This document shows, one piece after another, positions 32,293 through 54,298 of a stretch of DNA of 64,000 bases (the first letter of the stretch is position 1; every line of letters begins with the position of its first letter). The position numbers and the translations under genes were made by a program. The notes below the pieces were generated by a model, which saw only the letters and a program-made list of their open reading frames with translations, had not been told where the DNA came from and made no database searches. Source of the DNA: Planctomycetota bacterium (GTDB lineage: Bacteria; Planctomycetota; UBA1135; UBA2386); contig OZ245006.1 in assembly GCA_965223545.1 (NCBI GenBank), forward strand, positions 1,664,001-1,728,000, in the 5' to 3' direction.

Positions 32293-35003
32293 TCAGTAAC
32301 GGGTCACCGCGGTGCGCAACGGGTTGGTGAAGCGAGCGGCCGACGGAGTCGCCGCCGGCGCGACCAACGCCTGCCAGAAGAAATCGGCGCCGACCAGAGC
32401 AGCCGTGTTGGGCACGGTGAACGACCACACCACTGTGCCCGTCGTCGCCACCGGCATTGAGCAACTCAGCGTCGCCGGTCCGAGCGACAGCCAACCGAGC
32501 GATCCGATGCGCGCCGCCGGCGAGAGCGCGGTCGTGCTGGCGCAGAGCGCGGCCAGGATGCTCCCTCCGGCGGCACCCGGGTCGCCCGTGACCTCGATCT
32601 GCCACGGCCGACCGAGCCCCATGAGATACGGCGCGCGCAACGCCCGCGCCCGGTTGGCGAACACACGCAGTCCGCCGCCGACGTACTCGAGTGCATCGGC
32701 ATCGCCGTCTCGATCGACGTCGGCGAGAACGAGTCGCTTGGTGACCGTTGCGGGCTGTCCGAAGAACACTCGCTGGTAGCTGGCGGGAAACAAGGGCGAC
32801 GACAACGAAAACACGCCGTTGCCATCGTTCAACAGGACCTGCTCGACGCCCATGTTGTCGACCACGATCACATCGAGGTCGCCGTCGGAATCCAGGTCGT
32901 CGGCTTCGATCTGCTGCTGGTAGGCCGGCCACAAGGGCATCCGCGCCGCCGTCGCGTCGAAGAACATGCCATCGCCCGGGTTCTCCAAGAACATCGCACC
33001 GGGCGTCGCGTTGAGCCTCCGGCGCCTCAAATCTTCGAGCTTCGACAACATTTTCGAGGCGACGCCGCTGCCATGGCAACGGCGCCGCGGCGCCGGAGGC
33101 TCGGAGAGACAGTGCCTCTGGGCTCAGCGCGGCGGCGGATGTGTTGGACCTTCCAAGCCGCTCCGGCAAGAGCGGCATCCGAGTTGGTTGCGGCGGTGGC
33201 CGCGCTGAGCCTCGCGGCGGTCATGATGTCGAGGTCGCCGTCGCCATCGAAGTCCGCGATCTCCAGGTCGGTGCCGTGGAACGGGGCGTTCTGCATGATC
33301 ATCGTGAAGACGCCGGCCCCGTCGTTGCGAAACACCTCCATGCGCGAGCCCCGGGCGTGGACGGTATCCAGGTCGCCATCGCCGTCGAAGTCGAGCACTC
33401 CGAACGCGTCGATCTCGGAGGACGAGTTCGGGTAGGTCGAGCTGCAGGTGAAGCCACCGGCGCCGTCGTTGACGAGGAGATCGAGCGCGTAGCGGCCCGG
33501 ATACAGACCCGGATTCGTCTGCCGGCACATCAACACGTCCACCGCTGCGTTGCCGGCGAGATCTCCCGCCGCCAGCGTGATCGCCATGCCGCGCGGGTAT
33601 CCCGCCCGCTGGGTGAAACCGGCGCGGCCGTCGTTCAGGAACACACGCAGCTCGCTGTAGTGGCCATCGAGGAGATCCCCGTCGCCGTCGCCATCGACGT
33701 CGGCGATCAGGATCGCACCGGACTGCCCCGGACTGGCAATCGGCGGCAGGTGTCGGAAGCTGCCGAAACCGCTGTTCAAGAACAGCTCGGGCTCACCGCC
33801 GGCGAACGAGATGCTGTCGTTGGCGACGACGACGTCGTCGAGGCCGTCGCCATCGAGATCGCCGACCGCCCAGTCGACGAACGCCATCGCCGGCCGAGGA
33901 AACGGACCCGCAGAACCGTCGCGCCACTGCAGCCCGCCCTCGTTGAACAAGATCCTCCACGGCGCGCCGAACTCGACGAAGTCGAGATCGCCATCTGCGT
34001 CGGCGTCGAACGCCTGCGGCGCGGCGGAGTCGATCCAGGGCGGCATCGACGCCGGGGCCCGGGTGAACTGCGCCGCACCGTCGTTGAGCCACACCTCCGG
34101 CCCACCGGCGTCGAGCACGAGATCGACATCGCCATCGCCATCACAATCCGCCGCCAGGCTGCGCGCGACGCCGGCGCTGCCGACCGCCCCGGCGAACGAC
34201 CACCGAAAGCCGGCACTGTGAAGCAATAGCGAGTTCCCGGTCCTGCCGGTTGCCAGCCAGTCCAGATCGCCGTCGCTGTCGAAGTCGGCGTATGCGTCCG
34301 TCGGCGCCACCGACAGCGAGGAGGCGAGGGAGAACACACCCCCACCCGTGTTCTCCAACCAGACCGAGTTGACGTAGGCCCCGCTGGTGGAGCAAAGGAC
34401 ATCGGGGTCGCCATCGCCATCGGCGTCCACCGCGAGAGTGATCCCATTGACCGACGTCGCGGCAGTGGACCCGAGCGAGAACAGACCGGTGCCATCGTTG
34501 AGCAGGGTCTGGAGAGTGCCGGCAGGAGCTACACAGAGCAGGTCGGTGTCACCATCGCCGTCGACGTCTGCCGGAACCGGAGCGGAGCACAGCGTCAGGC
34601 CTGGGGCGAGGCTCGCGGCGGTGACGTCCGTGAAGTTGCCGGACCCGTCGTTGGCAAAGAGACTGCTCGACACGATCAGGTCGAGGTTTCCGTCCCCGTT
34701 GAGGTCGGCCAACCGCGGAGTCGTCCGGAACTGCTGCTGTGGGCCGATCGTCCCGTCGAGGATGAAGCGCCCGTGGCCGAGATTGCGGACGCGGTGCGCG
34801 GTGTCCAGAAACATCGCGATCAGGTCGCGATCGCCATCGCCGTCGATGTCGCCGTGAGCGAAGCCACCGAAGGTGCCGCCCGAAGGCAGGTGGGCATACA
34901 TCCGCTCGACAAAGCCGGGCTGGCAGGGCACCGCGGCAGCGAGCGACCACGCAGCGAGGAAAGCCACTGCAACAGCTTGGCAACGGTGGGGGCAACCGTG
35001 CAT
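32293..35003 (-). pseudogene. Secreted FG-GAP repeat protein split by a 194-bp insertion
   Basis: Two ORFs (35003-33027 and 33051-32293) both carry D.DGDGD.D repeats; deleting 33020-33213 gives the in-frame ...DLDIMTAARLNATPGAMFLENPGDG... Confidence 0.85.
33012..33213. mobile_element. Small gene-less structured insertion (194-bp unit) bounded by a TGAGCCTC direct repeat
   Basis: Direct repeat at 33012-33019 and 33206-33213; perfect internal inverted repeats 33013-33026/33089-33102 (14 bp) and 33121-33133/33199-33211 (13 bp). Confidence 0.75.
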
Positions 35004-46914: not shown

Positions 46915-47463
46915 ATGCTGCGCAATGGAATCCTGTCTGTCGGGCTCGGCACCGTGCTCTGCTCACTGGGCCTCGTCAACAACGCCACCGTGCCGGCTGC
47001 CGCCGCGGCGGAAGTCGCGGTCCCGACTCCCACGGGACCTTCGCCGAACGAGTTCATCTTCGGCCTGTCGGTCGCCGGCGTGTATCGCAACAGCTTCTCG
47101 GTCGGCGGCACGACGACCGTGGACGGATTGACCACCTTCCACGCGGACGGGACCTACAACTCGGTCGACGACAACGACCAGGTGCCGGGAAACTGGAACA
47201 CGATGACACACGGAATCTGGAAGCGGACCGGCCCGCTCCAACTGACCCTGCGCCAGATCAACCACGACTTCGACGCGAACGGCGCCCTGGAGTTCTTCGT
47301 CCGCACCGATCTGGTGGGAGACTTCGACCCCAACCTGCAGGGGGGTACGTTCGCCGGCTCGGTCGAGCTGTTTGCGGCCAGCCAGGACCCGCTGGATCCG
47401 AACGCGACGCCGATCGCGCGGATTCCCGTCACCGGGACTTCGCAGCGCATGTCCGTCCGGTAG
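46915..47463 (+). CDS. Secreted beta-barrel-like hypothetical protein
   Basis: AAGGAG RBS, signal peptide, LTTFHADGT...HGIWKRTG. Confidence 0.7.
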   Translation: MLRNGILSVGLGTVLCSLGLVNNATVPAAAAAEVAVPTPTGPSPNEFIFGLSVAGVYRNSFSVGGTTTVDGLTTFHADGTYNSVDDNDQVPGNWNTMTHGIWKRTGPLQLTLRQINHDFDANGALEFFVRTDLVGDFDPNLQGGTFAGSVELFAASQDPLDPNATPIARIPVTGTSQRMSVR

Positions 47464-47821
47464 GGCACGACCGGGCGTCGGCTTCCGGATGGTCGCTGGC
47501 CGGCAACCGTCGGTATCGACGGCTCCACGCCGGCTCAGCGGCCGGCGCAAACGCGGGAATCGCTGGCTCGACCTCCCTCGCGCAGCGGTCGCTCCTCGGT
47601 TGCGGCCTCGACTGCGCTGGGCAAGGCACGGAGGTCGGCCTCGCGCATGGTTCTTGCAGTGGCTCGGGTTGCTGACGACCACCCGCCGGGTGATTCGGTC
47701 CAGCGCTTTGTCGAGAGTCTCTGCCGCTCGAGTTTCTGCAACCATTCGGGCACTCCAGTGCGCGTCGCTCCCGCGGGTGGCGACGCAAGCCCTGCCCACT
47801 CGCAAGATCCGATCGAGGTCC

Positions 47822-50800
47822 ATGCCCCCCATGCCAACTCCACGCCGACTCGTTGCTTCCCTGTTCCCCACGGTCATGGCGTGCATCGCGCCCGCCGCAG
47901 CGCAGACTCTGGTCGCCGATATCGCCCAGTCGCCAATCCAGATCCCGCAGCCGGCATCGTGGCCGAACAACCCGTACCGCGCGTTCGGCGGCATCTTGTT
48001 CGGTGCGGACCTGACCAGCTTCGGCAGCGAGCTCTGGTTCAGCGACGGCACCGTCGCCGGAACCCGCCTGCTGGCCGACATCGAGCCCGGCTACCGCGGC
48101 TCCAACCCGCGGGGCTTCGCCACGCTGGCATCCGGGAACGTCGTCTTCAGCGCGGAGTCTGCTGACCTGGGCCGTGAGCTGTGGGTGACGGACGGCACGG
48201 CTGCGGGCACGCGCCTGGTCGCCGACCTCGCGCCGGGAACCACTGGGTCTTCCCCCGGCGGACTGACCGCCATCGGCGGAGTGGTCCTGTTCTTCGCCGA
48301 CGACGGGACGCGTGGCCTCGAGCTGTGGAGCACGGATGGCACGGCGGCCGGAACGGCACTCGTCGTCGATCTCACTCCCGGACCGATTGGTCTGTTTGCC
48401 ATCCCACCGATCACCGAACTGAGCAACGCCGCGCTCTTCATTACAGCCCCCCTCGGCGGCGGGTGGCAGCTGTGGCGTTCGGATGGCACCGCAGCTGGCA
48501 CCACGATGCTGCGCTTCGAGTTCACTGCGACTCGACCGAGGGCCGGTGGGTTCACCACGCTCGGCACCCGCGCGGTGTTCTGGGGCGACGGCGCCGCCGG
48601 CGCGGAGCCATGGGTGACGGACGGCACGAGTGCCGGCACGATGCTGCTCGCCGACGTGCTGCCGGGGGCTCTTCCCTCGCAGGTTCTCGGCCCGTACGCA
48701 GCCAGGCATTTCGTCGCGGCGGGCGGCCGCGCGTGGTTCTTGGCTTTCGGCGCCTCGGTGGGCCACGAGCTTTGGCTCACCGACGGAACACCGAGCGGCA
48801 CGCGCATCGTCACGACACTGGGTTCGCTCGCCGCCCGCCCTGGGGCGCTGCTCGGCGAAGTCGCCGGCGGCGACCTCGCATTCATGCTCGCCATGGACGC
48901 CGCGGTCGGGCAGTACGGGCTCTATCGTTCCGACGGCACCGCCGCAGGAACGGGACTGGTCTCCGTGCTCGGCAAGTCGATCGAGAACGTCCCCACCCCC
49001 GGAGTGGCCTTCGCGGGGGCGCTGTACTTCGCCGGGATCGGCAACGAGGGCACCGAGCTGTGGCGGACGGACGGCACCGCTGCTGGAACGGCGATCGTGT
49101 CCGATCTGCGGCCGGGAGCGACGGGGTCGGTGCCAACGGAGATGATCGACGCCGGCGGAACACTCGTGTTCAGCGCGGACGACGGCACAAGCGGACGCGA
49201 GCTGTGGCTGAGCGACGGGTCCGCTGCCGGCACGCGCATTGCGGACCTGGCCAAGGGTCCGATCAATTCCAGCTCGCATCCGCAGCTGATCGGCGTGCTC
49301 GACGGCAACAGCTACTGGCAAGTGTGGGCTGGGACCCCGGGCCCAACGTCGATCTGGCGATCGGACGGCACCACCGCCGGCACCACTGCTGTCTTGCCGA
49401 GCGCGCCCTTCGTCTTCCCCCCGACCGGTTTCGCTTCGGCCGTCGACTTCGCGATCTTCGGCGCGGTCGACCCCAACATCGGCGTCGAGCCGTGGGTCAT
49501 CGACTCCGCCGGCGTTCGGCCCCTCGTGGACCTGCGACCCGGCACCCGGGGCTCGGTGCGTGCCGAGTTCGCCAGCCTGGGCGACCGCATCGTGTTTGCC
49601 GCCGACGACGGCGTGCGCGGCAACGAGCTGTGGGTTACCGATGGCACCGCGGCCGGTACCGCGATCCTGGCCGACTTGGTGCCGGGATCCTCGCCATCCG
49701 ACCCCCACTCGCTGTTCGCTTGGAACGGGCAGGTGTTCTTCGCTGCGACCGACCCGACGCTGGGTACGGAGCTGCACGTCACCGACGGCACACCCAGCGG
49801 CACACGCCTGGTGCAAGACATCTACACGGGACGCAACCCGGCACTCCTGCAACCGGAGTTCACAGGCCTGGGAGACTTCGTCTACTTCGCCGCGGAAGAC
49901 GGCATCCACGGTCGAGAGCTGTGGCGCAGCGACGGCACGTCGGCCGGTACTGCTCTCGTGCACGACACCAACGGCATCTCGTTCTTTGGTGCCAAGCCGT
50001 ACGGGATGGCGGCGGTCGGTGACCGTGTCTTCTTCGCCGCGACGGTCGCTCTCGGTCAGTGGGTGCTGAGCACCGACGGTACGCCGGCGGGCACGAGCTT
50101 CGTGCGCTACGTCCCGGGCCGGGTCGAGGGCTCGCTGCAAGCGGTGGACGACACCCAAGCGGTGTACTTCGTGAGCGACGGCGCCAACTCATCGGCCCTG
50201 TGGCGCACCGACGGCACGAACGCGGGCAGCCGTCAGCTGCTCACCCTGAATACGCACCTCCTGCAGTGGGTGCAGCCCGAGATCCACAACGTCGGCGATG
50301 GCCGCGTCTTGTTCACCGCCAACGACGGCGCAAGTGGTCAGGAGCTTTGGGTGACCGACGGCACTGCTGCCGGCACGCGGTTGGTGGTCGACATCGCGCC
50401 CGTGGACGCCGACCCAACCGACCTTCAACGGCTGGGCAACCGCGTCGTGTTCTCCGCCAACGACGGCGTGCTGGGCCGAGAGCTCCACGGCATCGATTTG
50501 CTCGACACCGGCGCCTACGCGGCCGACCGCTACGGCTTCGGCTGCCCCGGCACCGGCGGCGTCGAGCCGAGCATCGAGGCGCGCGGCGCCGTGCGCAGCA
50601 GTCTCGGCAGCTGGCCCCTGGGGATCGACCGCGCGCTGCCGAGCAGCGCCGCGGCGGTGCTCGTCGGCGCCACCCGCCTCCGACTCCCCTTGTCGGGCAG
50701 CCTCTGCCGGCTGTGGACCGCACCGCTGGTCGCCCTGCCGGTGGCCATCGATCCGATGGGCAGCGCGACCCTCAACCTACCCGCCCCACCCGTCTCGGCA

Positions 50801-50902
50801 GGACTCGTCTTGCGCTGCCAAGCCGCCGTCCTCGACCCCGGCGGCGCATTCGGCGGACAACTCAGCAGCACCAGCGGCCTCGAGATCGTGATCGGCCAGT
50901 AG
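47822..50902 (+). CDS. Secreted ELWxxDGT repeat protein with conserved C-terminal domain
   Basis: More than 15 G.ELW.(S/T)DGT.AGT repeats; signal peptide (AAAQ); C-terminal YGFGCPGTGG...SGLEIVIGQ. Confidence 0.9.
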   Translation: MPPMPTPRRLVASLFPTVMACIAPAAAQTLVADIAQSPIQIPQPASWPNNPYRAFGGILFGADLTSFGSELWFSDGTVAGTRLLADIEPGYRGSNPRGFATLASGNVVFSAESADLGRELWVTDGTAAGTRLVADLAPGTTGSSPGGLTAIGGVVLFFADDGTRGLELWSTDGTAAGTALVVDLTPGPIGLFAIPPITELSNAALFITAPLGGGWQLWRSDGTAAGTTMLRFEFTATRPRAGGFTTLGTRAVFWGDGAAGAEPWVTDGTSAGTMLLADVLPGALPSQVLGPYAARHFVAAGGRAWFLAFGASVGHELWLTDGTPSGTRIVTTLGSLAARPGALLGEVAGGDLAFMLAMDAAVGQYGLYRSDGTAAGTGLVSVLGKSIENVPTPGVAFAGALYFAGIGNEGTELWRTDGTAAGTAIVSDLRPGATGSVPTEMIDAGGTLVFSADDGTSGRELWLSDGSAAGTRIADLAKGPINSSSHPQLIGVLDGNSYWQVWAGTPGPTSIWRSDGTTAGTTAVLPSAPFVFPPTGFASAVDFAIFGAVDPNIGVEPWVIDSAGVRPLVDLRPGTRGSVRAEFASLGDRIVFAADDGVRGNELWVTDGTAAGTAILADLVPGSSPSDPHSLFAWNGQVFFAATDPTLGTELHVTDGTPSGTRLVQDIYTGRNPALLQPEFTGLGDFVYFAAEDGIHGRELWRSDGTSAGTALVHDTNGISFFGAKPYGMAAVGDRVFFAATVALGQWVLSTDGTPAGTSFVRYVPGRVEGSLQAVDDTQAVYFVSDGANSSALWRTDGTNAGSRQLLTLNTHLLQWVQPEIHNVGDGRVLFTANDGASGQELWVTDGTAAGTRLVVDIAPVDADPTDLQRLGNRVVFSANDGVLGRELHGIDLLDTGAYAADRYGFGCPGTGGVEPSIEARGAVRSSLGSWPLGIDRALPSSAAAVLVGATRLRLPLSGSLCRLWTAPLVALPVAIDPMGSATLNLPAPPVSAGLVLRCQAAVLDPGGAFGGQLSSTSGLEIVIGQ

Positions 50903-50954
50903 ACGCGCCCTGTCCGGAGCCCGGAAGTTGAACGTACGGAGCCTGACCTGAAAC

Positions 50955-52337
50955 TCACCCAGCCTCGGCGATCGGTATGAGCTTGTACCCGAGGGATTTA
51001 GCGTTCTGTCGGAGTCCGACGATGCGTCGCTGGGTGAAGCGCTCCTCGTAGGCCTTGGCGCCTTCGTCTACGTAGTCCTGGCCGAACTTCAGCATGCGGT
51101 AGATGAGCAGGGCCAGTTTGCGGGCGATGGCAAAGATGGCGACGTTGCCGTCCTTCGCGCGGGCGATCTTGCGGAAGTGTGCGCCGAGAGCTGTCTGAGT
51201 ACGTTGGAGGGACAGGGCGGCCATCCGGAGGACCGTGGCGATCCTGCTGACCGCGATGTTGTTGCGGTGCTTCTTGATGCGCTTTCCACCCGAGACGGCT
51301 TGACGTGGGCACAGGCGTAGCCAGGAGACGAAGTGCTTCTCGGTCGGGAAAGCTTCGAGGTCGTAGCCGACCTCGGTGAGCACGATCATGGCCGTGCTCG
51401 GGCTGATACCGTCGATTCGCGTGAGATCACACCCGACGAGCCGGCAGAGGGCATCGCGAAGCTCCCGGCCGCCCTTCGTTCGGATGCTCCTCTCCTTGCG
51501 GGGGTCTGGATGCTCGGGGACGTCGGCCGTCTTGGCTTCCTCCGGTTGCAGGTCCTCGATCATCGCCATCAATCGCTTCTCGACCGACTCGATCTCGTGG
51601 TCGGTGTGCTCGAGCATCCGCAAGCCCGAAGCGAGAGTGAAGATGTGCTCCTCGATCCAGGTCCCTTGCAAGTGATCCGCGAGCTCCTTCTCGGAGATCT
51701 TGCAGCGCGGATCACGCAGTCTGGCGAGCGCTCGAGGGTCGCGTTCACCAGCGAGAATCGCGCGGATGATCGCGAGGCCGGTCTTGCCGGTGATGTCCGT
51801 TACCGCGCGATGGATCGCCACGTTCATCTGATCCAGTGACCGCTGCATCAACTGCGTGTGGCGCGTGCGCTGCGCGATCAAAGACGCGGCATGGCGTTGC
51901 AGGGTCCGCAACGCACAGATGTCCTTCGGAGGCCGGAACGAAGCGCGAATGAGGCCATAGGTGTGTAGCTTCTGCAGCCAACTGCAATCGCTGGCATCGG
52001 ACTTGGAGCGGCCCGGCACGTTCTTCACCTCGCGGGCATTCGCGAGGATGACCTCGAAGCCTCTCGACTCGAGTAGCTCGTAGACGGGAATCCAGTAGAC
52101 ATAGGTGCTCTCCATCGCGACGGATCGCACTCCGAGCTCCTCCAGCCAGTCCGCGAGCGCCTCTAGCTGGGGCGTCGTCGTTCCGAATCGCTTGATCGGA
52201 CGACTGCCGTCGGGTGCTGCTGCGCACACCCAGTGCTCGCGGCTGCCGATGTCGATTCCGGCGGCGTTGGGCTTCACGACTGGCAATACTTCCGCTGCGG
52301 GCTTCTTGCCCTTCCTCGTTCTGCTCTTCCCAGCCAT
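50955..52337 (-). CDS. IS110-family DEDD transposase/recombinase
   Basis: GIDIG, AMEST, KSDASD (RuvC-like DEDD); LTRIDGI, SWLRLCP...SGG, AIARKLA. Confidence 0.95.
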   Translation of the reverse strand: MAGKSRTRKGKKPAAEVLPVVKPNAAGIDIGSREHWVCAAAPDGSRPIKRFGTTTPQLEALADWLEELGVRSVAMESTYVYWIPVYELLESRGFEVILANAREVKNVPGRSKSDASDCSWLQKLHTYGLIRASFRPPKDICALRTLQRHAASLIAQRTRHTQLMQRSLDQMNVAIHRAVTDITGKTGLAIIRAILAGERDPRALARLRDPRCKISEKELADHLQGTWIEEHIFTLASGLRMLEHTDHEIESVEKRLMAMIEDLQPEEAKTADVPEHPDPRKERSIRTKGGRELRDALCRLVGCDLTRIDGISPSTAMIVLTEVGYDLEAFPTEKHFVSWLRLCPRQAVSGGKRIKKHRNNIAVSRIATVLRMAALSLQRTQTALGAHFRKIARAKDGNVAIFAIARKLALLIYRMLKFGQDYVDEGAKAYEERFTQRRIVGLRQNAKSLGYKLIPIAEAG

Positions 52338-52339
52338 AC

Positions 52340-52587
52340 TTCATCCTCATTGTTGTGGTGGGCCCGGCCCGAGGCGGCGATCAAACGAATCTGACCTGCG
52401 GGAGTGGGCACGGCGACGTGCCCCTCACCAGTGAAGGATGGCCAACTCGGACCCAGACTGGCTCTGGGGCAAACGTGCTCCAGTGGCTATTGGGGGCGTA
52501 GCTGCCGGGCCCCTCACACGTTCCCCTCCCCCTTCCTCAGCGGCTAGTTTCCTGCCCTGAAGGGCCGACAAATCTGCCGGGGCAGGA
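52340..52587 (-). ncRNA. Putative bridge RNA in the IS110 non-coding end (copy 1)
   Basis: ~250-nt non-coding end upstream of the transposase with matches to the target half-sites (52458-52464, 52477-52481) and the donor junction (52391-52398). RNA boundaries unknown. Confidence 0.65.
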
Positions 52588-52589
52588 CT

Positions 52590-52634
52590 GGCTCCGATTC
52601 ATCACCCGGCGGTGCCGGGTGATGAATCGGAGCC
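52590..52634. repeat. Central part of the REP-like doublet trapped between the two IS copies
   Basis: GGCTCCGATTCATCACCCGGC-GGT-GCCGGGTGATGAATCGGAGCC perfect hairpin; outer arms at 50927-50943 and 54282-54298. Confidence 0.9.
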
Positions 52635-52645
52635 TGACCTGAAAC

Positions 52646-54028
52646 TCACCCAGCCTCGACGATCGGTATGAGCTTGTACCCGAGGGATTTAGCGTTCTGT
52701 CGGAGTCCGACGATGCGTCGCTGGGTGAAGCGCTCCTCGTAGGCCTTGGCGCCTTCGTCTACGTAGTCCTGGCCGAACTTCAGCATGCGGTAGATGAGCA
52801 GGGCCAGTTTGCGGGCGATGGCAAAGATGGCGACGTTGCCGTCCTTCGCGCGGGCGATCTTGCGGAAGTGTGCGCCGAGAGCTGTCTGAGTACGTTGGAG
52901 GGACAGGGCGGCCATCCGGAGGACCGTGGCGATCCTGCTGACCGCGATGTTGTTGCGGTGCTTCTTGATGCGCTTTCCACCCGAGACGGCTTGACGTGGG
53001 CACAGGCGTAGCCAGGAGACGAAGTGCTTCTCGGTCGGGAAAGCATCGAGGTCGTAGCCGACCTCGGTGAGCACGATCATGGCCGTGCTCGGGCTGATAC
53101 CGTCGATTCGCGTGAGATCACACCCGACGAGCCGGCAGAGGGCATCGCGAAGCTCCCGGCCGCCCTTCGTTCGGATGCTCCTCTCCTTGCGGGGGTCTGG
53201 ATGCTCGGGGACGTCGGCCGTCTTGGCTTCCTCCGGTTGCAGGTCCTCGATCATCGCCATCAATCGCTTCTCGACCGACTCGATCTCGTGGTCGGTGTGC
53301 TCGAGCATCCGCAAGCCCGAAGCGAGAGTGAAGATGTGCTCCTCGATCCAGGTCCCTTGCAAGTGATCCGCGAGCTCCTTCTCGGAGATCTTGCAGCGCG
53401 GATCACGCAGTCTGGCGAGCGCTCGAGGGTCGCGTTCACCAGCGAGAATCGCGCGGATGATCGCGAGGCCGGTCTTGCCGGTGATGTCCGTTACCGCGCG
53501 ATGGATCGCCACGTTCATCTGATCCAGTGACCGCTGCATCAACTGCGTGTGGCGCGTGCGCTGCGCGATCAAAGACGCGGCATGGCGTTGCAGGGTCCGC
53601 AACGCACAGATGTCCTTCGGAGGCCGGAACGAAGCGCGAATGAGGCCATAGGTGTGTAGCTTCTGCAGCCAACTGCAATCGCTGGCATCGGACTTGGAGC
53701 GGCCCGGCACGTTCTTCACCTCGCGGGCATTCGCGAGGATGACCTCGAAGCCTCTCGACTCGAGTAGCTCGTAGACGGGAATCCAGTAGACATAGGTGCT
53801 CTCCATCGCGACGGATCGCACTCCGAGCTCCTCCAGCCAGTCCGCGAGCGCCTCTAGTTGGGGCGTCGTCGTTCCGAATCGCTTGATCGGACGACTGCCG
53901 TCGGGTGCTGCTGCGCACACCCAGTGCTCGCGGCTGCCGATGTCGATTCCGGCGGCGTTGGGCTTCACGACTGGTAATACTTCCGCTGCGGGCTTCTTGC
54001 CCTTCCTCGTTCTGCCCTTCCGAGCCAT
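52646..54028 (-). CDS. IS110-family DEDD transposase/recombinase
   Basis: 460 aa; differs from copy 1 at 4 residues seen (G3R, S5G, LEAF/LDAF, PIAE/PIVE). Confidence 0.95.
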   Translation of the reverse strand: MARKGRTRKGKKPAAEVLPVVKPNAAGIDIGSREHWVCAAAPDGSRPIKRFGTTTPQLEALADWLEELGVRSVAMESTYVYWIPVYELLESRGFEVILANAREVKNVPGRSKSDASDCSWLQKLHTYGLIRASFRPPKDICALRTLQRHAASLIAQRTRHTQLMQRSLDQMNVAIHRAVTDITGKTGLAIIRAILAGERDPRALARLRDPRCKISEKELADHLQGTWIEEHIFTLASGLRMLEHTDHEIESVEKRLMAMIEDLQPEEAKTADVPEHPDPRKERSIRTKGGRELRDALCRLVGCDLTRIDGISPSTAMIVLTEVGYDLDAFPTEKHFVSWLRLCPRQAVSGGKRIKKHRNNIAVSRIATVLRMAALSLQRTQTALGAHFRKIARAKDGNVAIFAIARKLALLIYRMLKFGQDYVDEGAKAYEERFTQRRIVGLRQNAKSLGYKLIPIVEAG

Positions 54029-54030
54029 AC

Positions 54031-54279
54031 TTCATCCTCCTTGTTGTGGTGGGCCCGGCCCGAGGCGGCGATCAAACGAATCTGACCTGCGGGAGTGGGC
54101 ACGGCGACGTGCCCCTCACCAGTGAAGGATGGCCAACTCGGACCCAGACTGGCTCTGGGGCAAACGTGCTCCAGTGGCTATTGGGGGCGTAGCTGCCGGG
54201 CCCCTCACACGTTCCCCGCCCCCTTCCTCAGCGGCTAGTTTCCTGCCCTGAAGGGCCGACAAAATCTGTCGGGGCAGGA
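54031..54279 (-). ncRNA. Putative bridge RNA in the IS110 non-coding end (copy 2)
   Basis: Same guide-like segments as copy 1. Confidence 0.65.
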
Positions 54280-54298
54280 CTGGCTCCGTACGTTCAAC

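What the first reader, a model, noticed from the sequence alone, without database searches (positions are those of the whole stretch)
50927..54298. Two IS110 copies occupy the equivalent site in both arms of one REP doublet
Seen: removing both elements reconstructs an 81-bp hairpin GTTGAACGTACGGAGC-CTG-GCTCCGATTCATCACCCGGC-GGT-GCCGGGTGATGAATCGGAGC-CTG-GCTCCGTACGTTCAAC with a single T-T mismatch. Each IS sits at the CTG centre of GGAGC-CTG-GCTCC, in the same orientation. The copies differ by several substitutions and a 1-nt indel. Established: some IS110 members (e.g. IS621) target REP sequences with a CT core. Inference: two independent, sequence-programmed insertions into a subfamily of the window's REP repeat; the pair could also excise as a composite carrying the central hairpin.
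Basis: partly seen in the sequence, partly recalled or inferred. Interest (0 to 1): 0.72.

Follow-up and report, generated by a model that had tools for sequence, protein, structure and literature searches.

The report
Two jumping genes fill one hairpin
Two near-identical RNA-guided jumping genes sit head-to-tail in the two arms of one short hairpin repeat, most likely because each landed separately and a tiny flip in one arm turned both landing sites the same way; this targeting habit is known, but their predicted guide RNA matches both halves of the element's joined ends on one DNA strand, which would suit a single-stranded intermediate.

Summary
Observation confirmed. Two intact IS110 copies (9 substitutions, 1 indel) interrupt both arms of an 81-bp REP doublet in the same orientation. 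The genome holds 23 full copies, 22 in this REP. The two copies are each identical to a different genome-wide haplotype (12 and 6 copies), and an intact 95%-identical sister doublet exists, so two separate insertions are likely. The core is CT, not CTG. A doubly filled doublet is expected by chance (P=0.60). The oddity is the T-T mismatch: 20 of 26 REP clusters have inverted cores, and here one arm's loop is flipped (7 of 95 one-footed REPs), which makes both targets face one way. A predicted bridge RNA in the left end covaries with target and ends in homologues. One donor guide matches an internal site on the same strand as the other guide (7 of 11 exact, 1 of 102 swapped), unlike IS621. Composite excision is untested and left no trace in the genome. 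The scan already noted this element at other copies in this genome, and head-to-head IS110 pairs in REP doublets in another genome.

The parts
50927..50942 (+). Outer half of REP arm 1 (GTAC foot and GGAGC stem), 24 bp after the stop of the upstream gene
   Evidence: matches the outer arm of the intact sister doublet
50943..50944 (+). CT recombination core at IS1's right-end junction; in canonical first arms this position reads CA (flipped loop)
   Evidence: flank-to-IS junction bridged by short-read contigs
50945..52587 (-). IS110 copy 1, 1643 bp, haplotype A (identical in 12 genomic copies)
50955..52337 (-). IS110 recombinase of copy 1, 460 aa; D29/E76/D114/D117 and S349 align with IS621's catalytic residues
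   Evidence: PF01548, PF02371, NF033542 above cut-off; alignment to 8wt6; residues
52338..52500 (-). Predicted bridge RNA in the long non-coding left end: two guide loops, each a 5' strand, a hairpin and a 3' strand
   Evidence: alignment and consensus fold of 11 homologues; no Rfam match in the window
52458..52464 (-). Target guide GAGCCAG, complementary to core plus REP stem on the CT strand
   Evidence: covaries with the flank in homologues: 6 of 9 exact, 0 of 70 swapped
52484..52488 (-). Candidate short second target guide AGCCA
   Evidence: 3 of 3 pairs in 4 of 11 own versus 4 of 104 swapped pairs; weak
52391..52397 (-). Donor guide AGGTCAG, complementary to core plus right end on the CT strand
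   Evidence: 6 of 8 exact, 0 of 44 swapped
52432..52438 (-). Second donor guide TCCTTCA; pairs with an internal left-end site on the same (CT) strand
   Evidence: 7 of 11 exact, 4 with one mismatch; 1 of 102 swapped; antisense 0 of 11 exact
52558..52564 (+). Internal left-end site (TGAAGGG) read by the second donor guide, about 24 nt inside the end, next to a short hairpin and a GTTTC/GAAAC box mirrored at the right end
52588..52635 (+). 48-bp spacer: CT core, inner halves of both REP arms (20-bp stem, GGT loop), CT core
52636..54279 (-). IS110 copy 2, 1644 bp, haplotype B (identical in 6 genomic copies); ORF 52646-54028
54280..54298 (+). CT core and outer half of REP arm 2, ending at the stop codon of the convergent HEAT-repeat gene
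47372..50902 (+). Upstream host gene, ELWxxDGT-repeat protein (context only; start codon not settled)
   Evidence: TIGR04534
54299..55420 (-). Downstream convergent host gene, HEAT-repeat protein (context only)
   Evidence: PF13646

Best explanation
Two intact IS110 elements of different haplotypes sit in the same orientation in the two arms of one REP doublet, likely as two separate bridge-RNA-guided insertions into a doublet whose first arm already carried a flipped loop. Shown: the REP family, the 23-copy expansion, the CT core, the two haplotypes, the sister doublet and guide-target covariation. Inferred: the element leaves as a circle joined at CT, its RNA pairs with CT-GGCTC on one strand plus a short stretch on the other, and the recombinase crosses over 3' of CT as IS621 does. 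Because the REP stem is a palindrome, only the loop sets the direction. Normal doublets offer two opposite targets. Here the first loop reads CTG instead of CAG, probably through micro-inversion inside the stem, so both insertions face one way and leave a 48-bp hairpin between head-to-tail copies. With about 18% of REPs filled, one doubly filled doublet needs no special mechanism.
For: 22 of 23 full copies sit in the REP centre with the same core on both sides. IS1 equals the 12-copy haplotype and IS2 the 6-copy haplotype, with no mosaic. The rebuilt site matches an intact doublet at 81 of 85 positions and six more at 94-97%. Among one-footed REPs the loop is CAG 88 times, CTG 7 times and CCG/CGG 0 times, so the flipped loop is a recurring class: 6 of the 7 are empty, p=0.0005 against equal substitution rates. 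Occupancy of flipped loops (1 of 7) matches canonical ones (14 of 88). P(at least one double among 26 clusters)=0.60. Guides covary with flank and end in homologues. The 7-nt guide motif alone occurs 1936 times and the 10-nt motif 126 times, close to the 120 REP sites. IS621 cuts the top strand 3' of CT (PMC11208158 passages), so a backward insertion into a CA site would be expected to leave CA at the left junction, where CT is seen.
Against: The order of events (flip before or after insertion) cannot be read from one genome. No empty or singly filled allele of this locus was found: no close relative holds the REP family (at most one motif match in 60 relatives), and the metagenome scan found no relative of the flanking gene. 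The only double hit falls in one of 6 direct-core clusters and none in 20 inverted ones (joint P=0.10), a weak hint of selection or preference. The central junctions are not confirmed by independent contigs. RNA expression and activity are untested. The guide regex caught only 12 of 44 loci tried, all closer homologues.
Confidence: 0.8

Rival explanations
1. IS1 first entered a canonical CAG arm in the opposite orientation, or backward at the mismatched site. The segment core-IS-core was then flipped between the 6-bp inverted stems, or the mismatch was repaired, and the head-to-tail form survived because an inverted pair would be a 3.3-kb palindrome.
For: Flipping core-IS-core between the stems gives exactly the observed sequence (sequence logic). 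0 of 20 inverted-core doublets are doubly filled, 5 singly. 13% of IS621 off-target insertions lacked CT (102 of 117 had it; PMC11208160 passage). Instability of long palindromes is recalled knowledge.
Against: 0 of 20 is the expected outcome half the time (P=0.50). Six empty flipped-loop REPs show that the flip occurs without an element in place. Two unchecked scan notes (e1-8543817, e1-8543924) report paired IS110 copies in REP doublets of another genome, one described as head-to-head, so inverted pairs may be viable.
Confidence: 0.11
2. One insertion plus a local duplication, or a composite circle (element plus central hairpin from another doublet) pasted into a resident copy sitting in a two-footed REP.
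For: The element does make local duplications: at C1:4.826-4.830 Mb a copy plus about 175 bp of flank is repeated with a junction at a non-REP CT. Two-footed REPs are common (25 of 120). ISPpu9 makes modular circles and ISPpu10 makes tandem amplifications.
Against: The two copies are pure, different haplotypes, whereas the 4.83-Mb pair is identical. The spacer is not repeated. No two-footed REP with these outer flanks exists (0). The rebuilt site has an intact full-length sister.
Confidence: 0.04
3. The tandem is an assembly artefact at a repeat.
For: No listed short-read contig bridges IS1-spacer-IS2 in four runs, and that junction is unique in the assembly.
Against: The copies carry different genome-wide haplotypes, the spacer has its own loop and restores a sister-like doublet, the chromosome is one 8.07-Mb contig with a clean two-arm GC skew, and the unusual left junction is bridged in three runs. 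The tool states that holes prove nothing, and 31 pieces were not shown.
Confidence: 0.03

Closest known systems
ISPpu9 (Pseudomonas putida KT2440; PMC12288879; abstract, Results parts 1-2 of 4, section 17, Discussion part 1 read)
   Same: IS110 inserting at an AG dinucleotide in element sense, within REPs and mostly BIMEs (11 of 12 new insertions); inverted repeat in the left-end box; circles joined at AG; ends can be mixed to give modular circles.
   Different: No doubly filled BIME is described in the parts read. Guides were not mapped there. Sequence kinship of the two transposases was not tested. Mutating the left-end inverted repeat did not stop ISPpu9 circles, which argues against a strict need for a folded end if the two are alike.
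IS621 / ISCro4 bridge recombinases (PMC11208160, PMC11208158 passages; PMC13626964 abstract and one section; PDB 8wt6, 9t56)
   Same: DEDD plus serine catalytic set, long left non-coding end with a two-loop RNA, CT core, REP target, no long terminal repeats.
   Different: 460 aa against 326-341, only weakly similar (E 2e-10). The gene and RNA run opposite to the CT strand. One donor guide matches an internal same-strand site instead of the opposite strand at the junction.
ISPpu10 (bioRxiv 10.64898/2026.03.19.712850; part 1 of 8 read)
   Same: REP-targeting IS110 with CT core; pairs of copies in REPs form composite, ISPpu10-cargo-ISPpu10 units and tandem amplifications; target stem-loop adds specificity.
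   Different: Those composites span over 100 kb between separate REPs; here the cargo is the 48-bp centre of one doublet, and mobility is unshown.
REPIN/RAYT systems (bioRxiv 10.1101/2021.07.10.451892 and PMC6006769, passages)
   Same: Two short palindromes in inverted orientation with a spacer, about 100 bp, between genes; a Y1 transposase gene flanked by the same repeats.
   Different: The foot tetranucleotide is GTAC rather than GT[AG]G. The flanked gene scores below the NCBIfam RAYT cut-off and has a C-terminal helix-turn-helix-like extension.

Membership tests
IS110 family | N-terminal DEDD RuvC-like domain PF01548 and C-terminal PF02371 | tested here: met
   E 1.3e-26 and 4.7e-14; NF033542 247.9 bits against cut-off 140
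IS110 family | Catalytic DEDD and conserved serine | tested here: met
   D29, E76, D114, D117, S349 align with IS621 (IS621 residues named)
IS110 family | Insertion at a short core present at both junctions, no target duplication beyond it | tested here: met
   23 of 23 copies have the same core at both ends; core narrowed to CT
IS110 group (not IS1111) | Long left non-coding end holding the RNA, short right end, only short subterminal repeats | tested here: met
   left end 250 nt, right end 10 nt; only a 5-6 nt GTTTC/GAAAC box
Bridge-RNA recombinases | Structured non-coding RNA whose loops match target and donor and covary with them | tested here: met
   prediction from sequence only
Bridge-RNA recombinases (IS621 type) | Each loop pairs with both strands of a double-stranded site at the core | tested here: not met
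   for the donor loop both guides match the CT strand: same-sense 7 of 11 exact, antisense 0 of 11; the target loop fits the two-strand pattern only weakly
Bridge-RNA recombinases | RNA expressed, circle formed, recombination activity | not testable with these tools
   no RNA holder listed; contigs only
REP / REPIN | Short palindrome repeated many times, often as inverted doublets | tested here: met
   120 sites, 26 clusters within 120 bp, 20 with inverted cores
REP / REPIN | GT[AG]G tetranucleotide at the hairpin foot | tested here: not met
   the foot is GTAC in the listed sites; the census required GTAC, so GTAG feet were not counted
REP / REPIN | Cognate RAYT gene flanked by the repeat | tested here: inconclusive
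   a Y1_Tnp gene at C1:3,914,532-3,915,533 has this REP on both sides, inverted; PF01797 above cut-off, NF047646 63.5 bits below cut-off 80
REP / REPIN | Extragenic location genome-wide | not tested
   only this locus was checked: between two convergent stop codons
Composite transposon | The pair plus cargo moves as a unit | tested here: inconclusive
   outer ends are in direct orientation, but the unit occurs once and no circle joint is listed

The most novel reading that the evidence does not exclude
This IS110 subfamily recombines folded single strands. Its donor loop grips the CT strand of the circle folded back on itself, with TG facing CT (a T-T mismatch) as a pseudo-core, so a single-stranded circle can insert without being made double-stranded. 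A REP doublet with a flipped loop folds into the same T-T pseudo-duplex, fully matching both target guides (AGCCA on one arm, GAGCCAG on the other), which makes it a preferred target and explains why the one mismatched perfect doublet is the one filled twice. The donor half rests on tested covariation (I put it near 0.4 alone). The target half rests on a non-significant excess (4 of 12 sites filled in direct-core clusters against 5 of 40, p=0.19).
Probability: 0.1. Interest if true: 0.8.

Novelty: new variant of a known kind. Interest (0 to 1): 0.42.

Why it matters
The double insertion is a tidy natural demonstration that a single loop base sets the direction of an RNA-guided insertion into a palindrome, and a ready substrate for asking which end pairs an IS110 joins: single circles, a 3.3-kb composite, or a fused dimer without the spacer. 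That is useful but not surprising. The larger value is in the element's guide layout. Whether IS110 circles are single- or double-stranded is described as unresolved in a 2026 preprint that finds single-stranded IS621 circles (10.64898/2026.08.31.748434). A subfamily whose donor guides both match one strand makes that question testable by simple compensatory mutations, and could widen the substrate range of bridge-recombinase tools.

Tried and rejected
Replication-strand bias of insertions, which a lagging-strand single-stranded target would predict: 12 of 23 on the leading strand, p=1.0; rejected. Clustering or preference for a second hit nearby: P=0.60 by permutation; direct-core clusters 4 of 12 against 18 of 108 other sites, p=0.23; not supported. 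Orthologous empty allele: none of 60 relatives has more than one match to the REP motif; the best relative recombinase hits were 35-43% identical over part of the protein; the metagenome scan with the flanking HEAT gene gave 493 pattern hits and 0 confirmed relatives. Sequencing runs: no RNA holder listed. Logan contigs list no joint for an empty allele or a circle junction, and no piece bridging the spacer; contigs drop rare variants, and 69 and 31 pieces were not shown. Summed contig depth over the element was about 14-16 times that of the left flank, below 23, but the tool states that depth is not copy number, so I did not use it. Rfam: 0 matches in the window. Minimum-energy folding of the single RNA was not above shuffles (z=-1.16). 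Folding the joined donor strand gave the GTTTC/GAAAC-closed fold-back in 4 of 7 homologues and not in this element or the other 3, so the fold-back is not supported by energy alone. An antisense donor guide for the first bases of the left end was sought and not found. Literature: searches surfaced no paper on two IS110 copies in one REP doublet or on a same-strand donor guide. The library lacks most subscription papers, and I read no supplements; those of PMC1525189, PMC12288879 and the bioRxiv preprints may hold such cases.
Full report
Observation. The described structure is present. Junction motifs lie at 50938, 52582, 52629 and 54274, and the two elements differ by 9 substitutions and one 1-nt indel. 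Both encode intact 460-aa IS110 recombinases on the minus strand, with D29, E76, D114, D117 and S349 aligning to the IS621 catalytic set. With both removed, the site folds as one long stem with a single T-T mismatch and a 3-nt loop. It lies between two convergent host genes, 24 bp after one stop codon and abutting the other.

The element in its genome. BLAST finds 23 full copies and one fragment on the 8.07-Mb chromosome. Twenty-two sit in the centre of one palindromic repeat, always with the same core on both sides. The 23rd, at C1:4,826,231-4,827,872, follows a second copy and a repeat of about 175 bp of flank, and its non-REP junction breaks exactly after CT. Homologues carry TAG on one side and CAG on the other. 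The core is therefore CT on the window's plus strand (AG in element sense, as stated for ISPpu9), and the elements are 50945-52587 and 52636-54279. Six haplotypes exist: 12, 6, 2, 1, 1 and 1 copies. IS1 is identical to the 12-copy type and IS2 to the 6-copy type. A local duplication would give identical or mosaic copies, as at 4.83 Mb, so separate arrivals are the simplest reading.

The repeat. In an element-free copy of the chromosome I counted 120 sites (stem GGAGC/GCTCC with at most one mismatch, loop CAG or CTG, GTAC foot on at least one side), 22 of them filled. They form 26 clusters within 120 bp: 20 with inverted cores (5 singly filled, none doubly) and 6 with direct cores (2 singly filled, and this one doubly). 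The rebuilt site matches an intact doublet at 81 of 85 positions and six more at 94-97%, all with CAG in the first arm. A Y1-transposase gene at C1:3,914,532-3,915,533 has this repeat on both sides in inverted orientation, the layout used to assign RAYTs to REPINs. It passes PF01797 but not the NCBIfam RAYT cut-off, and the foot is GTAC rather than the canonical GT[AG]G. I therefore treat the repeat as a REP/REPIN-like family with a variant foot. It was not found amplified in 60 relatives.

Is the double hit surprising? No. Placing 22 insertions at random on 120 sites gives at least one doubly filled cluster in 60% of 100,000 trials. The informative detail is the mismatch. Read from the foot, one-footed REPs have loop CAG 88 times, CTG 7 times (this arm included) and CCG or CGG never. 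That points to inversion of the loop within its stem rather than random substitution (p=0.0005 under equal rates). Template switching at near-perfect inverted repeats is an established source of such local changes (PMC7954356 passages); its role here is my inference. Because the stem is palindromic, the loop alone sets direction, so a flipped first arm yields two targets facing one way. In IS621 the top strand is cut 3' of CT, so a backward insertion into CA should leave CA at the left junction, where CT is seen and is bridged by short-read contigs. A later flip of the whole core-element-core segment gives the same sequence and cannot be excluded. Selection against a 3.3-kb inverted pair is plausible from recalled knowledge but unsupported by the counts (P=0.50 for none in 20; joint pattern P=0.10), and two unchecked scan notes report paired copies in REP doublets elsewhere, one of them head-to-head.

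The guide RNA. A scan of genome contigs gave 75 related loci. The left non-coding end is conserved among the closer ones and folds into two loop modules, the donor module with covarying stem pairs (9 of 29 predicted pairs with two-sided changes). A regex found both main guides in 12 of 44 loci tried. After dropping near-duplicates, guide 1 matched its own left flank plus core exactly in 6 of 9 and never in 70 swapped pairs, and guide 2 matched its own right end plus core in 6 of 8 and never in 44 swaps. In this element they read GAGCCAG and AGGTCAG. A short second target guide pairs fully with 3 flank bases in 4 of 11 own against 4 of 104 swapped pairs, which is weak support. The 7-nt motif alone occurs 1936 times and the 10-nt motif 126 times, so both guides together are about enough to explain REP specificity without invoking the hairpin, although ISPpu10 is reported to use a target stem-loop.

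A difference from IS621. Earlier scan notes on other copies suggested that the donor loop reads one strand, and I tested it. The 5' strand of the donor loop matches, in the same sense, a site 21-30 nt inside the left end: 7 of 11 exact and 4 with one mismatch, against 1 of 102 swapped pairs, while the antisense match is never exact. Both donor guides would thus pair with the CT strand, one at the junction and one at the internal site, with a small hairpin between them and GTTTC/GAAAC boxes outside. In IS621 each loop pairs with both strands. The simplest geometry is a folded single strand in which TG faces CT. A 2026 preprint reports mainly single-stranded IS621 circles and donor-only excision (parts 1-3 of 6 read), while another paper detects resealed empty sites. 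Against the fold-back: energy folding gave it in 4 of 7 homologues and not in this element; ISPpu9 still circularised when its left-end inverted repeat was mutated; and there is no replication-strand bias (12 of 23). A looped double-stranded arrangement is an open alternative.

Most novel reading. The flipped doublet, folded as one strand, also puts TG opposite CT and would pair fully with both target guides. It would mimic the donor and could be a preferred target. Direct-core clusters are filled at 4 of 12 sites against 5 of 40 in inverted doublets (p=0.19), so this is allowed but not shown. I give it 0.1.

Composite excision. The outer ends are in direct orientation, and donor-only excision and modular circles are reported for relatives, so a 3.3-kb circle is possible. 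No trace was found: the donor junction occurs 0 times in the genome and the element-to-spacer junction once, and contigs list no such joint, which does not show absence.

Limits. The centre of the tandem and IS2's right junction have no independent read support here. No relative shows the empty allele. All RNA roles are predictions. Papers were seen as stated under Closest known systems, plus passages of PMC1525189 and PMC3971601; no supplements were read. Searches found no printed case of this arrangement, within a library that lacks most subscription papers.

Verdict. A real locus, explained by known REP targeting plus chance and a flipped loop. The element is an IS110-group bridge recombinase that works like IS621 or ISPpu9 but fails the two-strand donor test, hence a new variant of a known kind. 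Interest 0.42.

Noticed in passing
G000 C1:3,912,823-3,917,190 (L077): The RAYT-like gene has both of its flanking REPs filled by this IS110 (one A-like copy, one B copy, inverted, right ends inward). At 18% occupancy a double hit on one given pair is about a 3% event (post hoc).
   Followed up: partly
G000 C1:4,826,231-4,829,690: Tandem duplication of the element plus about 175 bp of flank; the new junction joins the right end to a non-REP CT. It looks like a one-ended (half-match) recombination event.
   Followed up: partly
G000 C1:988,112-988,240: Internally deleted remnant: a 5' piece of the recombinase gene joined to the element's right end and core, in a non-REP context.
   Followed up: no
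L001:1645-1730: In the closest homologue (78% identical protein), the right end is followed by an 86-bp near-perfect palindrome whose far arm carries a mirrored stub of the element's end; remnant of an inverted second insertion, template switch or assembly fold-back.
   Followed up: no
G000, 12 weak PF01797 matches (e.g. L078-L087): A multi-copy family of about 240-325-aa Y1-transposase-like ORFs, below the RAYT and IS200 cut-offs; in L080 it lies next to an ORF that looks by eye like a reverse transcriptase (YADD motif; not tested).
   Followed up: no
G000 C1:1,729,907-1,730,233 (L076), just past the window's end: A Y1_Tnp domain inside a 1432-codon open frame.
   Followed up: no
G000 C1:1,013,441 and 4,332,373 copies: Short tandem duplications of the REP half next to the inserted element.
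   Followed up: no
G000, 25 of 120 REP sites: Two-footed REPs (GTAC on both sides), some perfect palindromes; they could be collapsed doublets. 7 of 25 are filled against 14 of 88 canonical.
   Followed up: partly
window 33012-33213: An earlier scan note (e1-9802812) describes a second, gene-less hairpin repeat family here.
   Followed up: no
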